From sequence record OR062943.1: a stretch of 64,000 nt of DNA; one strand, given 5' to 3'. The notes under the pieces were generated by a model, which was not told the origin of the DNA, did no database searches, and was given only the letters and a program-made list of their open reading frames with translations. Of this stretch, positions 8,635 to 12,977 are shown in pieces (the stretch's first letter is position 1; each line of letters starts with the position of its first letter). The position numbers were made by a program, and so were the translations under genes. This stretch comes from Escherichia phage 241Ecol014PP.

Positions 8635-9189
8635 ATGAAATACTTTGTAACAAGCGACACACACTTTCTCCACCAGCGGGTCATGGAGTTTGATTCATGT
8701 CAAAAACACAGATCTCAGTATGATCACAATCTTGACAGTATGAATGCGGGAATCATCGCCGAATGGAACTCTGTTGTGTCACCTGCAGACACTGTGTTCC
8801 ACTTGGGAGATATTGCGTGCACTAATGATAAGAATATCAACAACTTACTTCCAGATATTCTAAATATGTTGAACGGACATATTATTCTTGTTCGTGGCAA
8901 CCATGACACAAGGACGACTGTCAGAATTATGAAAGAGTTCGGTCATGAGGTTGTAGATTATTACGAGCTTCGCCACAACAAGAATTTGATCTGTATGAGC
9001 CATTACCAGTTTGCAAAGTGGAACAGAAAGCCTCACGGATCAGTCCAACTGTTCGGTCATGCTCACGGAACCACACAACAGTTGTTTGGCAGACAGTTTG
9101 ATGTCGGTTGGGATGTGTGGGGGAGACTCTTACCATTAGAAGAGGCATACCGTATTGCAATGAGTTTTGCTATTGACAGCGGGGAGTAA
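8635..9189 (+). CDS. calcineurin-like metallophosphoesterase
   Basis: SDTHF (D-x-H), GDIACTN (GD), GNHD (GNH[DE]), GHAHG; start placed at ATG 8635 because the D-x-H motif is N-terminal. Confidence 0.65.
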   Translation: MKYFVTSDTHFLHQRVMEFDSCQKHRSQYDHNLDSMNAGIIAEWNSVVSPADTVFHLGDIACTNDKNINNLLPDILNMLNGHIILVRGNHDTRTTVRIMKEFGHEVVDYYELRHNKNLICMSHYQFAKWNRKPHGSVQLFGHAHGTTQQLFGRQFDVGWDVWGRLLPLEEAYRIAMSFAIDSGE

Positions 9190-9236
9190 TCCCTGCTATT
9201 TTAAAGAAAATTGCCACACAAGGAGAATCAGGAGAT

Positions 9237-9587
9237 ATGAAAGATGGGGATAAGCTGCTATATCTTAAAGTCCCCCTTGAAATACTATCTATGTCAAAAG
9301 TTTTGAATGACACAACTGGGGAGGTTGTTGTTCTTGACTTGTATGACAAGATCGTATACTGCTACCTGCACAACTGGTATAAGCTTGGAGGAAGTTCACG
9401 CTTCACACCCAGCACAAGGAAAATTGCAGCAGATGTTGGAATAAAGAAAACAAAAGCAGCAGCGTGCGTTAAAACTTTAGAATGTGCGGGAGTGGTTGAA
9501 ATATCCACACAAGGGAGAGGTAAAAGATGCACATTTTCCAAAGTTTTGCCACCAGAAGAAGTTATTCGAATGTCAACAACTGGTTAG
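9237..9587 (+). CDS. small DNA-binding protein, helix-turn-helix-like (116 aa)
   Basis: RKIAADVGIKKTKAAACVKTLECAGVVEI looks like an HTH/wHTH segment; GGAGA RBS; iteron array lies 75 bp downstream. Confidence 0.35.
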   Translation: MKDGDKLLYLKVPLEILSMSKVLNDTTGEVVVLDLYDKIVYCYLHNWYKLGGSSRFTPSTRKIAADVGIKKTKAAACVKTLECAGVVEISTQGRGKRCTFSKVLPPEEVIRMSTTG

Positions 9588-9662
9588 ACCAGTAAAAACT
9601 TAAATATCTGTACTATAAGGATTCGTATGTTTTATGTTCGCTCTGGAACAGAGGTTAGTAAC

Positions 9663-9743
9663 TGTCCGTGATACGGACACTACTGTCCGTCACGCGGACA
9701 CATCTGTCCGTAATACGGACACTAACTGTCCGTGATACGGACA
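9663..9743. repeat. four tandem 17-bp palindromes TGTCCGT-N3-ACGGACA at 21-22 bp phasing
   Basis: Units at 9663-9679, 9684-9700 (one mismatch), 9705-9721, 9727-9743; perfect 7-bp arms. Confidence 0.85.
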
Positions 9744-9890
9744 CATAAAGAATATAACTAAAATAACTAAATAATAAAAAACAAAAGATCTAGTACTTAT
9801 GGTACTAAGTACATATACTTAACTTATGTAGAATATATTAGATCCTAAGTACTATGTTTTAAATTTATTACTTACTATGGGTAGTGTCGG
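9744..9890. other. AT-rich tract with GTACTTA/TAAGTAC inverted repeats
   Basis: agtacttatggtactaagtac and cctaagtactatg immediately after the iterons. Confidence 0.5.
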
Positions 9891-10235
9891 CCCTTCATTG
9901 GCACTCGCCTACGAGGGGCGAGATGCCGGGCCTCCCTGGTGCACACAATAACAGAAGTGCATACATGCAGGTCTGTTAACATGTGTGGGAGCGAAGCGAT
10001 AGCGCAGGCCAAAGTCCGAGCACTGATGTGGACCACCGACGAAAGCTTGCCAGCGCCGGAAGGAGTCGGTTGAGAGTCTCCCGCGCGAGCTTGGATGAAG
10101 TTTATGTGTGGAAACGGACAAGAAGGCCCCTAAATCGCTCCACAGCTATATAAACTATATCAGGTAAGGCAATCGCACCAGTTTGATAGAAAAGCTCGTT
10201 ACAAAGCGATACAGTGAGTTTTTCTATAACTTGAA
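9890..10235. other. GC-rich non-coding island
   Basis: Sharp GC rise versus flanks; only ORF is an implausible 70-aa antisense frame (9909-10121). Confidence 0.35.
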
Positions 10236-10247
10236 GAGGAGGCAGCT

Positions 10248-10826
10248 ATGAGTCCACGCAAAGATGACCGTGAAAAGATTGCAAAACGTTATCAGAATGA
10301 AGAACAGATGGAGAAAACTTTCAAGTGGAAGCCAGGTTTCCAGCGTAATCATTCTAACGCTCGTGATCGTAAGCATCCGGATAAGTGGTTAACACCGCCA
10401 AATGATGGCATTCAGGTTGGTGATGAGAAGGAGCTGTCACCAGGAAAAGATGGCAACTACATTCGCACTAAGGAAGCAGGTCCAAAGGATGACAGCTATC
10501 TTGTAGATAAGGTTCTTGACGGTATTGATGCAGGTGTTGACACTATGCGAAACCTTTTTCTTGGTTGGTATCGTACAGGGTTTTTCGACATCAAGGCTAT
10601 TCGTCGTGTTTGTGATATTAAAAAGTCTGCCTATGATGATGACTCTCTACATCGCACTCTGAGACAATACTCAGAGAGATACGGTCATCCAGTTATCACT
10701 CTTGACGATATTAACGAAGTGATGTATCATGCAGAGGTTGTTGCAGGTAGATTCGGTGATGCATATCTCGGTATTCTTTCTGCAAAAGATGAGGTAATGT
10801 TAAATAAAATTTACTATGAACGCTGA
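10248..10826 (+). CDS. hypothetical protein (192 aa), charged N-terminal region
   Basis: Strong RBS GAAGAGGAGG before the ATG; no recognisable motif. Confidence 0.5.
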   Translation: MSPRKDDREKIAKRYQNEEQMEKTFKWKPGFQRNHSNARDRKHPDKWLTPPNDGIQVGDEKELSPGKDGNYIRTKEAGPKDDSYLVDKVLDGIDAGVDTMRNLFLGWYRTGFFDIKAIRRVCDIKKSAYDDDSLHRTLRQYSERYGHPVITLDDINEVMYHAEVVAGRFGDAYLGILSAKDEVMLNKIYYER

Positions 10827-12067: not shown

Positions 12068-12126
12068 TGTAAACATGGTCTCCCACCTTTTCTGGCGGCT
12101 AAGGTGTAAAAGAAAGCCACCCAGTG

Positions 12127-12200
12127 CCCTGTTAGCTTAGTGGATAAAGCAGCGGCCTTCTAAGCCGTTGACACTGGTTCGAGTCCAGTACGGGGTGCCA
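12127..12200 (+). tRNA. tRNA-Arg (anticodon TCT)
   Basis: Hand-folded cloverleaf: acceptor GCCCTGT/ACGGGGT, D stem GCTT/AAGC, anticodon stem GCGGC/GCCGT, loop CTTCTAA, T arm ACTGG-TTCGAGT-CCAGT, encoded CCA. Confidence 0.7.
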
Positions 12201-12330
12201 AGTTCTTTTTAATGTAGCTTACTTTAGCAGAGTAAATCTTCGGCAAGTGGCGGTAACCACTTTACCGATACCTCATAGTTAGTGGTGAGAACACTAGCTA
12301 TTTTAAAAAGAATTTAAATATTAGTATTTA

Positions 12331-12418
12331 GGTGAGTTAATTCCGTAGGGGTAGCGGGGCAGACTGTAAATCTGTTATCATTGCGATTCGGGTGGTTCGA
12401 CTCCATCACTCACCACCA
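12331..12418 (+). tRNA. tRNA-Tyr (anticodon GTA), long variable arm
   Basis: Acceptor GGTGAGT/ACTCACC, anticodon loop CTGTAAA, T arm GGTGG-TTCGACT-CCATC, CCA encoded. Confidence 0.7.
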
Positions 12419-12532
12419 AATTTATATTTTTAAATGCATAAATCATACAGATAATGGCATTGATATTTATCGTCGTTTATACTAGTCACTAACTGCTCGA
12501 AAATCAGTGTCATTATCAGTATTGTTTATAAA

Positions 12533-12623
12533 AGAGGGTAGGGAGCAATGGTGCTCAAGCGGTCTTGAAAACCGTCCCGTTGAGGATGACTCGATGATGG
12601 TTCGATTCCATTATCCTCTGCCA
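12533..12623 (+). tRNA. tRNA-Ser (anticodon TGA), long variable arm
   Basis: Acceptor AGAGGGT/ATCCTCT, anticodon stem GCGGT/ACCGT, loop CTTGAAA, T arm GATGG-TTCGATT-CCATT, CCA encoded. Confidence 0.7.
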
Positions 12624-12721
12624 TATTGTTGACCTTGTAATTAAGCGAAAGCCGGAAGCAGAACCGGATTATCAAATGTTACAGTCGTCATCGCCGACTA
12701 GCAACATGGTCAACATACTGA

Positions 12722-12818
12722 GCTAGGTAAGCCCTTTGGCAAGGGCGAGGATTTTTAATCCTGAAAATAGACGAGGTAGTCGTTGAATACATAGGTGGTT
12801 CGATTCCACCGCCTAGCA
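12722..12818 (+). tRNA. tRNA-like gene, non-canonical (about 97 nt); anticodon uncertain, possibly TTT
   Basis: Good acceptor (GCTAGGT/GCCTAGC), D arm and T arm (GGTGG-TTCGATT-CCACC), but anticodon arm has a 4-bp stem, the variable region is about 30 nt and no CCA is encoded. Confidence 0.35.
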
Positions 12819-12825
12819 CCTTTTT

Positions 12826-12901
12826 GCTGATGTAGCACAATTGGTAGTGCAATTGATTTGTAATCAATAGGTTGCAGGTTCAAGTCCTGCCATCAGCACC
12901 A
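12826..12901 (+). tRNA. tRNA-Thr (anticodon TGT)
   Basis: Acceptor GCTGATG/CATCAGC, anticodon stem ATTGA/TCAAT, loop TTTGTAA, T arm GCAGG-TTCAAGT-CCTGC, CCA encoded. Confidence 0.75.
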
Positions 12902-12902
12902 T

Positions 12903-12977
12903 GGCCCTGTAGCTGGAAGGTTCAAGCAAGCGACTCATAATCGCCAGACGGTGGTTCAATTCCACCCAGGGCCACCA
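12903..12977 (+). tRNA. tRNA-Met (anticodon CAT); initiator versus elongator not resolved
   Basis: Acceptor GGCCCTG/CAGGGCC, anticodon loop CTCATAA, T arm GGTGG-TTCAATT-CCACC, CCA encoded; D arm imperfect. Confidence 0.6.

What the first reader, a model, noticed from the sequence alone, without database searches (positions are those of the whole stretch)
9237..9890. Candidate origin/operator: four phased palindromic iterons plus AT-rich tract beside a small DNA-binding gene
Four copies of TGTCCGT-N3-ACGGACA (one with a single mismatch) are spaced 21-22 bp apart, i.e. on one face of the helix, and are followed by about 140 bp of AT-rich DNA with GTACTTA/TAAGTAC inverted repeats. This is the architecture of an iteron-type replication origin or a cooperative operator. 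The 116-aa HTH-like protein 75 bp upstream is the obvious candidate binder.
Basis: seen in the sequence. Interest (0 to 1): 0.6.

Follow-up and report, generated by a model that had tools for sequence, protein, structure and literature searches.

The report
Likely replication origin of rV5-like phages
A unique array of four evenly spaced palindromic repeats, next to the most easily melted DNA in the genome and to a small gene resembling a known replication-initiator DNA-binding domain, is most likely the so far unmapped replication origin of rV5-like E. coli phages.

Summary
Four copies of TGTCCGT-N3-ACGGACA start at 9663, 9684, 9705 and 9727 (spacing 21/21/22 bp). They are followed by a 136-bp tract of about 80% A+T. 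The 116-aa gene ends 75 bp upstream.

The window is a Vequintavirus (rV5-like E. coli myovirus). The array occurs once in a complete 135-kb relative. The AT tract is the least stable DNA in that genome. Array and AT tract vary about three times less than neutral sites.

The 116-aa protein is a winged helix. Its closest characterised relative is the N-terminal domain of PLE RepA (PDB 4RO3), a satellite initiator shown to bind semi-palindromic origin iterons. RepA_N plasmid initiators come next.

Sister genera carry the same module: a small winged-helix gene, 2-3 lineage-specific phased repeats and an AT-rich tract.

The adjacent GC-rich 350 bp is a non-coding structured element. It is shared, with five compensatory base-pair changes, with small satellite-like E. 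coli plasmids, where it lies downstream of an iteron array.

Best reading: an iteron-type origin (confidence about 0.5). Main rival: an activator-site, promoter and leader-RNA control region at the head of the late operon (about 0.3). The two may coexist. No experiment exists. The rV5 genome paper looked for the origin and did not find it.

The parts
9173..9202 (+). sigma-70-like promoter candidate (TTGACA-18-TATTTT with TG) just upstream of the 116-aa gene
   Evidence: Consensus scan, 10 of 12 matches. It is the last promoter-like site before 10500. Prediction only.
9237..9587 (+). 116-aa winged-helix protein (rV5 gp79), candidate origin-binding protein. It resembles the N-terminal DNA-binding domain of RepA_N-type initiators but has no C-terminal domain.
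9588..9658 (.). spacer between the gene and the array, evolving almost neutrally
   Evidence: 27% variable columns in 8 genomes, against about 30% at third codon positions. It is not alignable in the lineage with a 70%-identical protein.
9659..9744 (.). iteron array: four 21-22 bp direct repeats, each holding TGTCCGT-N3-ACGGACA (9663-9679, 9684-9700, 9705-9721, 9727-9743)
   Evidence: Unique in the genome. 10.5% variable columns, with the right half-sites invariant. Retained in L012 and L013.
9745..9880 (.). AT-rich tract, candidate DNA-unwinding element. It contains tandem ATAACTAAA x2 (9754-9771), GATC at 9787 and 9841, five TACTTA/TAAGTA motifs (9794-9874), and a -10-like TAGAAT (9829-9834) with no -35.
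   Evidence: Least stable DNA of the whole genome. 10.3% variable columns, with only one variable site in 9783-9837. Motif counts. The layout is shared with the AT tracts of 4MG, Ro1, L015 and L017.
9881..10235 (+). GC-rich (about 58%) conserved non-coding structured element. Hairpin A is 9884-9935 and hairpin B is 10026-10087. A further 12-13 bp stem lies at 10186-10227, just before the ribosome-binding site of the next gene.
   Evidence: Composition. Variable sites in the rV5 'gp78' ORF (9983-10153) fall 10/11/7 by codon position, so there is no third-position bias and it is not coding. No Rfam family matches. Among phage records it is found only in Vequintavirus. Partial homologues exist in small E. 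coli plasmids. Compared with them, 10 of 15 differences form 5 compensatory pairs and none breaks a pair. The wobble pairs fit the + strand only.
10248..10826 (+). 192-aa protein of unknown function, with the same narrow taxonomic distribution as the 116-aa protein and the intergenic module. Possible partner; speculative.
   Evidence: tblastn finds it in 119 records, all Vequintavirus. PHROG 12226 has unknown function. No Pfam, PDB or NCBIfam hit.

Best explanation
Proposed identity. The region from about 9659 to 9880, probably extending to about 10235, is the vegetative replication origin of Vequintavirus. It is built like an iteron origin.

Proposed mechanism (all steps inferred):
1. Dimers of the 116-aa winged-helix protein bind the four semi-palindromic iterons. 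The protein is a stand-alone homologue of the DNA-binding N-terminal domain of RepA_N-type initiators such as PLE RepA. Half-site centres are 10 bp apart and the units are 21-22 bp apart, so all dimers would sit on one face of the helix.
2. This nucleoprotein array helps to open the directly adjoining AT-rich tract, which is the least stable DNA of the genome.
3. Transcription entering from upstream may assist, because no terminator is predicted between the gene and the array.
4. The phage's own helicases and primase load there. The rV5 paper describes a DnaB-like helicase domain in gp230, with primase/helicase homologues, and a PIF1/RecD-type SF1B helicase, gp237.
5. The structured GC-rich element next to the AT tract acts as a priming or loading signal, or as a leader RNA.

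Shown here: the anatomy, its uniqueness in the genome, the purifying selection, the homology of the protein, and the recurrence of the module in sister genera.

Not shown: binding of the protein, DNA opening, helicase loading, and that replication starts here.
For: 1. Four phased repeats, unique in a complete 135-kb genome. The array is the top-scoring tandem repeat in non-coding DNA of that genome.
2. The adjoining AT tract is the extreme of AT content and of duplex instability for the whole genome, about 5 sd from the mean.
3. Purifying selection: iterons 10.5% and AT tract 10.3% variable columns. This compares with 27% in the spacer just upstream and about 30% at third codon positions. The iteron survives where the protein is 70% identical and the flank no longer aligns.
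5. Seunavirus 4MG, Mydovirus Ro1 and three metagenomic relatives each have a related small winged-helix gene. Each lies beside 2-3 lineage-specific 18-24 bp repeats at 23-25 bp spacing, followed by an AT tract of similar layout. This is the pattern of swapped initiator/iteron specificity on a conserved core.
6. In Vequintavirus the gene points towards the array, which lies 3' of it. No promoter-like site overlaps the array, so it is not a simple autoregulatory operator.
7. The global minimum of cumulative GC skew, at 73 kb in APCEc02, and a divergent transcription switch lie 1.5 kb away.
8. In small E. coli plasmids a homologue of the GC-rich element lies downstream of a classic array of 6-7 iterons at 23-bp spacing. 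It lies upstream of an HTH_36-type probable Rep gene, that is, inside a likely basic replicon.
Against: - No experimental data exist for any Vequintavirus.
- The protein has only the DNA-binding domain. It lacks the C-terminal domain that RepA_N initiators have, so it could be a pure DNA-binding regulator.
- Its Pfam scores are below the curated cut-offs, and RepA_N (PF06970) is not hit at all.
- GC skew in these phages follows the direction of transcription, so it does not locate an origin independently.
- No DnaA box lies nearby.
- In sister genera the repeats lie 14-20 bp upstream of the winged-helix gene's start codon, at a divergent promoter region. Seven family members also match Pfam 'wHTH-PRTase associated'. 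Both facts fit a transcription factor.
- In Vequintavirus the module sits exactly at the head of the roughly 50-kb late (+) operon.
- The GC-rich element has wobble pairs that fit the + strand only, which favours an RNA in the sense of the downstream genes. This suits a promoter-leader reading.
- A more distant 182-aa branch of the protein family (L014) has no obvious repeat array.
Confidence: 0.5

Rival explanations
1. Transcriptional control region at the start of the late operon. The four palindromes are operator or upstream-activator sites for the 116-aa winged-helix regulator. The AT tract holds a promoter without a -35 element (TGTAGAAT at 9826-9834). The GC-rich element is a structured leader RNA, for example a processive antiterminator or a stability element, for the long (+) operon: the 192-aa gene, tRNAs, terminase, and head and tail genes. 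This reading is compatible with a transcription-activated origin, so the two are not exclusive.
For: - The module lies between early-type genes (kinase, phosphoesterase, winged helix) and the structural gene block, which is all on the + strand.
- The string ATGTAGAAT is the -10 region of clear sigma-70 promoters in 4MG, Ro1 and L017, where TTGAC(T/A) lies 16-17 nt upstream.
- The hairpins of the GC-rich element keep G.U wobble pairs on the + strand only. The element is co-oriented with the downstream genes in both the phage and the plasmids.
- In sister genera the repeats abut the winged-helix gene's start at a divergent promoter region.
- Some relatives match Pfam wHTH-PRTase_assc and head a Prs-NAPRTase operon.
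Against: - No promoter-like site scoring at least 9 of 12 is found anywhere in 9203-10500 on either strand. The rV5 authors list none between gp79 and gp77.
- The candidate -10 has no -35 and no canonical extended -10 spacing.
- Four sites on one helical face, 90-170 bp upstream of it, is unusual for a simple operator.
- This reading does not explain why the tract is the least stable DNA of the whole genome.
- It does not explain why the protein's best characterised relatives are initiators.
Confidence: 0.3
2. Packaging initiation (pac) site. The repeats, or the GC-rich element, are recognised by a small terminase-like DNA-binding protein (the 116-aa protein) to start headful packaging. The satellite-like plasmids share the element so that the helper can package them.
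For: - Vequintaviruses are circularly permuted, headful packagers with no pac site reported.
- The terminase genes lie about 4.3 kb downstream on the same strand.
- Satellites usually copy the helper's packaging signal. The 13.7-kb plasmid lists no terminase gene yet shares the GC-rich element.
Against: - The protein's fold and homology are those of a RepA_N/DnaD-type winged helix, with no small-terminase oligomerisation core.
- It is separated from the large terminase gene by six genes and a tRNA cluster.
- An extreme AT-rich unwinding tract and compensatory hairpin evolution are not expected of a double-stranded pac site.
- The satellite-like plasmid has different iterons. It also shares short matches with another non-coding region, at 34 kb of APCEc02, which is an equally good pac candidate.
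Confidence: 0.05
3. The repeat array has no function. It is a chance or slippage-generated tandem repeat, or a remnant.
For: Short tandem arrays can arise by slippage. Assemblies break at this array.
Against: - 0 of 100 shuffles give four matches.
- Conservation is about three times stronger than at neutral sites across the genus.
- The array is kept at 70% protein identity.
- An analogous module exists in other genera.
Confidence: 0.02

Closest known systems
PLE RepA and the PLE origin (Vibrio cholerae phage satellite; RepA N-terminal domain PDB 4RO3; Barth et al. 2020, PMC7145576)
   Same: - It is the closest characterised homologue of the 116-aa protein by sequence and by fold.
- The initiator binds semi-palindromic direct repeats in a non-coding region.
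- Replication depends on phage-encoded machinery, including an SF1B helicase. The rV5 paper reports a PIF1/RecD-type helicase in this genus.
   Different: - PLE RepA has an additional C-terminal domain. The phage protein is the N-terminal domain alone.
- The iteron sequences are unrelated.
- PLE is a satellite, whereas this is a 136-kb virulent myovirus.
- Identity is only 27-28%, and the Pfam DUF6945 score is below its cut-off.
RepA_N plasmid initiators of Firmicutes (pSK41, pTZ2162; PDB 4PQL, 4PT7, 4PTA, 5KBJ)
   Same: - Winged-helix N-terminal domain fold related to DnaD-NTD.
- The dimer binds semi-palindromic iterons.
   Different: - No sequence-level match: PF06970 is not hit.
- No C-terminal domain.
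- As I recall, the origin of RepA_N plasmids usually lies inside the rep gene. Here it lies 75 bp downstream of the gene.
Phage lambda ori and O protein (from memory)
   Same: - Four iterons with internal dyad symmetry, each thought to bind a dimer of the initiator's N-terminal domain.
- The iterons are followed directly by an AT-rich unwinding region.
- No DnaA boxes.
- The origin lies within a transcribed unit, and transcription activates it.
   Different: - Lambda ori lies inside the O gene.
- O has a C-terminal domain that recruits P and DnaB.
- Pfam Phage_rep_O is not matched by the window protein. Only 4MG_094 matches it, at E 0.04.
Iteron plasmid origins such as P1 oriR, pPS10 and RK2 oriV (from memory)
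   Same: - Direct repeats of 17-22 bp in helical phase.
- An adjacent AT-rich region with short repeats and GATC sites, then a GC-rich segment.
- In the sister genera the repeats sit just upstream of the gene, as in autoregulated rep genes.
   Different: - Those initiators are two-winged-helix Rep proteins of about 30 kDa that bind iterons as monomers.
- DnaA boxes are usual there and absent here.
- GATC enrichment in this window is weak, with only 2 sites.

Membership tests
Iteron-type replication origin | Three or more direct repeats of about 17-22 bp in helical phase | tested here: met
   Four 21-22 bp units with spacing 21/21/22.
Iteron-type replication origin | Adjacent AT-rich DNA-unwinding element | tested here: met
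   9745-9880 directly abuts the last iteron. It is the least stable 100 bp of the whole genome, at -102 against a mean of -133.5 kcal/mol (sd 5.8). Actual unwinding was not tested.
Iteron-type replication origin | Cognate initiator protein encoded next to the repeats and binding them | tested here: inconclusive
   The adjacent winged-helix gene is homologous to an iteron-binding initiator domain. The gene and repeats also co-occur across lineages. Binding itself is not testable with these tools.
Iteron-type replication origin | Replication initiates at the site | not testable with these tools
   This needs marker-frequency sequencing, 2D gels, or an origin-cloning assay. GC skew is confounded by transcription.
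Iteron-type replication origin | DnaA boxes (common in plasmid origins, not universal) | tested here: not met
   No TTWTNCACA within 5 kb of the array. The window as a whole is at chance level.
RepA_N / DUF6945 initiator N-terminal domain | Score above the curated Pfam threshold for RepA_N (PF06970) or DUF6945 (PF22182) | tested here: not met
   DUF6945 scores 24.9 bits against a cut-off of 28. RepA_N is not reported at E up to 1. 23 of 36 family members match DUF6945 at E up to 0.01.
RepA_N / DUF6945 initiator N-terminal domain | Fold of the N-terminal domain (extended winged helix, DnaD-NTD-like) | tested here: met
RepA_N / DUF6945 initiator N-terminal domain | C-terminal, host- or helper-specific domain | tested here: not met
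   The protein is 116 aa and ends after the winged helix.
RepA_N / DUF6945 initiator N-terminal domain | Semi-palindromic direct-repeat iterons | tested here: met
   7-N3-7 inverted sub-repeats inside each direct repeat. The family description is taken from PMC7145576.
Repressor-operator pair | Palindromic sites overlapping a promoter that they control | tested here: not met
   In the window no promoter-like site overlaps or flanks the array, and the array is 3' of the gene. In sister genera the repeats do lie just 5' of the gene, so the feature may hold there.
pac site with small terminase | Site within or next to the terminase genes, and a binder with a small-terminase fold | tested here: not met
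   The large terminase gene starts about 4.3 kb downstream, beyond six ORFs and the tRNA cluster. The fold is RepA_N/DnaD-like.
Known RNA families (for the GC-rich element) | Match to an Rfam covariance model | tested here: not met
   Nothing reaches a gathering score. At permissive E-values only sub-threshold matches appear, none near a family's gathering score.

The most novel reading that the evidence does not exclude
The module would be a composite origin with two layers.

- Specificity layer: a stand-alone RepA_N-like DNA-binding domain plus its iterons.
- Common layer: the AT tract with TACTTA repeats, plus a structured GC-rich RNA or single-stranded-DNA element, read by the Vequintavirus replication or late-transcription machinery.

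Small plasmid-borne elements of E. coli would be previously unrecognised satellites of rV5-like phages. They encode capsid, tape-measure, baseplate-like and neck-like proteins (the last two 44-50% identical to Vequintavirus proteins, the tape measure 25%), and none is annotated as a terminase. They would have copied the common layer while keeping their own iterons and Rep, in order to hijack the helper. This would mirror PLE and ICP1, and would suggest that satellite RepA proteins descend from origin-binding proteins of lytic phages.
Probability: 0.2. Interest if true: 0.75.

Novelty: new member of a known kind. Interest (0 to 1): 0.52.

Why it matters
rV5-like phages are widely isolated and are used in E. 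coli O157 biocontrol and in phage-therapy cocktails. Their origin of replication has never been located. The rV5 genome paper tried skew analysis and found only transcription switches.

A defined origin and origin-binding protein would make several things possible:
- Replication timing, engineering and copy-number studies.
- Origin-based shuttle or reporter constructs.
- A test of whether a bare RepA_N-type DNA-binding domain can act as an initiator.

The shared structured element also gives a concrete handle on a possible helper-satellite system for a major group of virulent coliphages.

Tried and rejected
- Single-sequence AlphaFold model of the 116-aa protein: pLDDT 43, unusable. It was replaced by a model from a 36-sequence alignment.
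- The search for related loci with the mixed alignment failed, because no stretch was conserved enough.
- An IMG/VR scan for the palindrome returned only single chance occurrences among the 80 of 104 loci listed, and no arrays among them.
- A metagenome scan for two adjacent iterons returned two close Vequintaviruses and two unrelated high-GC palindromes, and no divergent lineage.
- DnaA boxes: none nearby.
- GATC clustering in the window's AT tract: only 2 sites in a genome already rich in GATC, so no weight was placed on it.
- RNAalifold within the genus on the GC-rich element gave 0 compensatory pairs, because divergence is too low. Covariation appeared only against the plasmid homologues.
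- Rfam: no family.
- The rV5 annotation of gp79 as 'structural protein (MS evidence)' rests on two non-tryptic spectra. Their XCorr values are 1.86 and 2.08, their Sp ranks are 20 and 79, and the mass error reaches 2.8 Da. I treat it as unreliable.
- A homologue in Vibrio phage ICP1, whose origin is mapped, was sought by tblastn with a 182-aa family member. None was found.
- The distant 182-aa branch (L014) shows no repeat array next to the gene.
- Recognition-helix comparison across lineages showed no simple correspondence with repeat sequence.
- The 192-aa neighbour has no detectable homologue of known function.

Full report
**What the window is.** The region 9100-10300 is 98-99% identical to more than 110 Vequintavirus genomes (rV5-like E. 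coli myoviruses such as APCEc02, MaxBurger and rV5). GenBank records call the 116-aa gene 'putative transcriptional regulator' or 'hypothetical'. RefSeq calls it 'replication initiation protein'. Two records mark the repeats as an unexplained 'repeat_region'. The rV5 genome paper tried to locate the origin by AT and GC skew. It found only changes that coincide with transcription switches (PMC3606486). I found no paper describing an origin or iterons in this group.

**The observation.** Four matches to TGTCCGT-N3-ACGGACA lie at 9663, 9684, 9705 and 9727, and the second has one mismatch. There is no other match with up to 2 mismatches in the window, and 0 of 100 shuffles reach four. The repeating unit is 21-22 nt, with spacing 21/21/22. 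The 116-aa ORF (9237-9587) ends 75 bp before the first palindrome. From 9745 to 9880 the DNA is about 80% A+T. From 9881 to about 10130 it is about 58% G+C.

I assembled the complete APCEc02 genome from three fetched stretches. In it, the only palindrome matches with up to 2 mismatches are the four of this array. Isolated half-sites occur at chance frequency. The array is the best-scoring tandem repeat in non-coding DNA of that genome. The AT tract is the most AT-rich and least stable 80-140 bp of the whole 135 kb, at -102 kcal/mol per 100 bp against a mean of -133.5 (sd 5.8).

**Selection.** I aligned eight Vequintavirus genomes, with protein identity down to 88%. The fraction of variable columns was:
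- 27% in the 71-bp spacer between the gene and the array;
- 10.5% in the iterons;
- 10.3% in the AT tract, with a single variable site in 9783-9837;
- 14.4% in the GC-rich segment;
- about 30% at third codon positions of the two flanking genes.

The right half-sites (A/G)CGGACAC never vary, while the left half-sites and the central triplets do. The unit is therefore functionally asymmetric. A metagenomic lineage has a protein only 70% identical (P0023, L012). Its sequence between the stop codon and the array cannot be aligned, yet it still shows ACTGTCCGTCACACGGACAGAACTGTC. That contig and another one both end inside the array, as expected for an assembly break at a repeat.

**The protein.** Sequence searches find the family almost only in Vequintavirus.
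- Pfam gives sub-threshold DUF6945 and HTH_36.
- PHROGs gives 'replication initiation protein' families.
- Against PDB sequences the only significant hit is 4RO3, at E 7.4e-6 with the single sequence and 3.8e-7 with a 36-sequence profile.

4RO3 is the N-terminal domain of RepA of the Vibrio cholerae satellite PLE. [quoted passage not shown] It also shifts the semi-palindromic iteron ('repeat 3') of the PLE origin in EMSA (PMC7145576). The phage protein corresponds to this DNA-binding domain only and has no C-terminal domain.

**Relatives.** The nearest genera lack a tblastn-detectable copy of the protein. Even so, Seunavirus 4MG has a 105-aa winged-helix protein that matches it (BLASTP E 2e-6; DUF6945 3e-5). 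A profile search adds small winged-helix proteins of Mydovirus (Ro1, KP12) and of several metagenomic phages. In each of these the gene sits at a divergent strand switch. From 14 bp (4MG) or 20 bp (L015) upstream of its start codon lie 2-3 lineage-specific repeats:
- TCAATTTGAG(N)TAGGCT, twice, 23 bp apart (4MG and L019);
- TATTCC-N6-GGAATA, three times, with spacing 24 and 59-60 (Ro1, L017, L018);
- TGTCCCC-N5-GGGGACA, twice, 25 bp apart (L015).

In the lineages whose flanks I read (4MG, Ro1, L015, L017/L018) an AT-rich tract follows, with doubled AACTAA-type motifs and AGATCT sites. Its layout resembles the window's tract; in L019 the tract is AT-rich but those motifs were not checked. So the module of small winged-helix gene, phased repeats and AT tract is older than the genus, while the repeat sequence changes with the protein.

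In Vequintavirus the gene is turned round. The array lies 3' of the gene, has four copies, and is not overlapped by any promoter-like site.

**The GC-rich element.** rV5 annotated a 56-aa, pI-12 ORF here (gp78). Its variable sites show no codon-position bias (10/11/7), so it is not coding. Rfam has no match. Within the genus there is too little variation to test a structure. Among phage records the element is confined to Vequintavirus.

Parts of it recur at 84-87% identity in a few small, non-mobilizable E. coli plasmids. In NZ_CP020521.1 (13.7 kb) and p3RM10740 it lies in a non-coding region with the following order:
1. 6-7 semi-palindromic 19-nt iterons (ACCCCGGTAAATATTTCCG), several at 23-bp spacing.
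2. GATC-containing and AT-rich repeats.
3. The homologue of the GC-rich element.
4. Small ORFs and a 290-300-aa HTH_36/MarR-like protein, which is the probable Rep.

Comparing phage and plasmid copies, 10 of the 15 differences in two hairpins (window 9884-9935 and 10026-10087) form five compensatory base-pair changes. None breaks a pair. The G.U (or G.T) wobble pairs fit the + strand only. The element is therefore a conserved structure in RNA or single-stranded DNA, in the sense of the downstream genes.

The 13.7-kb plasmid encodes a major capsid protein, a tape-measure protein, a 'baseplate' protein 50% identical to APCEc02 gp198, and a neck-like protein 44% identical to gp206. None of its annotated genes is called a terminase. 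It also shares short matches with the 34-kb non-coding region of the phage. It looks like a satellite or mini-phage of Vequintavirus. I found no literature on this.

**Interpretation.** The following all fit an iteron-type origin whose specificity factor is the 116-aa protein:
- a unique, phased, semi-palindromic array;
- the most meltable DNA of the genome immediately beside it;
- an adjacent gene for a homologue of an iteron-binding initiator domain;
- conservation of the whole module with swapped specificities in sister genera;
- proximity to the skew minimum and a divergent switch;
- a plasmid counterpart in which the shared element lies within a probable basic replicon.

The steps after binding are inferred by analogy with lambda O/ori, iteron plasmids and PLE. 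These steps are opening of the AT tract, loading of the phage helicases, and priming. I put the origin reading at about 0.5.

**The main rival (about 0.3)** arose late in the analysis.
- The module sits exactly where the early-type genes end and the roughly 50-kb late (+) operon begins.
- ATGTAGAAT in the AT tract is the -10 region of good sigma-70 promoters in relatives.
- The structured element is co-oriented with the downstream genes, and its wobble pairs suggest RNA.
- In sister genera the repeats sit at the gene's own promoter region, and some family members match Pfam 'wHTH-PRTase associated'.

A satellite copying a helper's late leader would also make sense. Against this rival, no promoter is predicted in the window's module. 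It also leaves the extreme instability of the tract and the initiator homology unexplained.

The two readings can coexist, as in transcription-activated origins. A pac-site reading is weak (0.05). The fold is not that of a small terminase, the large terminase gene is 4.3 kb away, and hairpin covariation and an unwinding tract are not pac features. The pac site of these headful packagers is nevertheless unmapped.

**Novelty.** The kind of element, an iteron origin with a RepA_N-like binder, is well known. Automated annotation already labels the gene 'replication initiation protein'. What is new:
- the assignment of a concrete origin to a phage genus in which it was sought and not found;
- the stand-alone N-terminal-domain form of the putative initiator;
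- the structured element it shares with satellite-like plasmids.

I rate it a new member of a known kind, of moderate interest, with a more novel composite-origin and satellite reading that is not excluded.

Noticed in passing
window 9881-10235 (hairpins 9884-9935 and 10026-10087): This conserved GC-rich segment is not coding and matches no Rfam family. Compared with partial homologues in small E. coli plasmids, five base pairs changed on both sides and none is broken. It is therefore a structured RNA or single-stranded-DNA element on the + strand, of unknown function.
   Followed up: partly
L130/L132 (NZ_CP020521.1, 13.7 kb) and L131 (p3RM10740, 39.6 kb); also NZ_CP035869.1, CP148565.1 and NZ_CP178698.1: NZ_CP020521.1 is a non-mobilizable circular E. 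coli plasmid with its own 19-nt iteron array and an HTH protein that is a probable Rep. It also carries a capsid gene, a tape-measure gene, and homologues of two Vequintavirus structural proteins (44-50% identity), with none of its annotated genes called a terminase. p3RM10740 shares the iteron array and an HTH_36 protein; the other three were seen only as short matches to the GC-rich element. They look like unrecognised plasmid-borne satellites or mini-phages of rV5-like phages. No literature was found.
   Followed up: partly
outside the window: APCEc02 (L006) 33.4-35.0 kb: This 1.7-kb gene desert holds three short tandem-repeat arrays and the second most AT-rich spot of the genome. The satellite-like plasmid shares 51-nt and 25-nt matches with it. 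It is a candidate pac site or second origin.
   Followed up: no
window 9237-9587 (rV5 gp79): The rV5 paper lists this protein as 'structural protein (MS evidence)'. The evidence is two non-tryptic, low-scoring spectra, so a virion location is doubtful.
   Followed up: yes
window 9983-10153: The ORF annotated in rV5 as gp78 (56 aa, pI 12), and as 'hypothetical protein' in some BASEL records, shows no codon-position bias in its substitutions. It is probably not a gene.
   Followed up: yes
window 10186-10227: A 12-13 bp inverted repeat, invariant across eight genomes, ends about 10 nt before the ribosome-binding site of the 192-aa gene. It may be a regulatory or processing hairpin.
   Followed up: no
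window 12126-12977: The tRNA cluster shows tool disagreements. ARAGORN calls a 99-nt 'tRNA' with a four-base anticodon at 12722-12820. Rfam finds a tRNA at 12331-12415 that ARAGORN does not report. ARAGORN reports tRNA-Ser at 12533-12623, which does not reach Rfam's gathering score.
   Followed up: no
public records (not in the window): CP057073.1 is a complete Vequintavirus genome deposited as a 137.6-kb E. coli plasmid. Eighteen GenBank records named 'Campylobacter phage' match this E. coli phage region; those listed are about 98% identical.
   Followed up: no
L127 and L128 (metagenome contigs): Unrelated high-GC contigs carry a long nested palindrome that contains the same TGTCCGT..ACGGACA motif twice. 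This is probably coincidental, but the two contigs resemble each other.
   Followed up: no
L009, L010, L015, L017-L019 (sister genera): In Seunavirus, Mydovirus and related metagenomic phages the small winged-helix gene heads an operon. A PRPP synthetase-like gene follows, directly or after one small ORF, and then a nicotinamide/nicotinate phosphoribosyltransferase. Several of these proteins match Pfam 'wHTH-PRTase associated'. Vequintavirus keeps the winged-helix gene and the repeats, and no such genes are annotated in APCEc02.
   Followed up: partly
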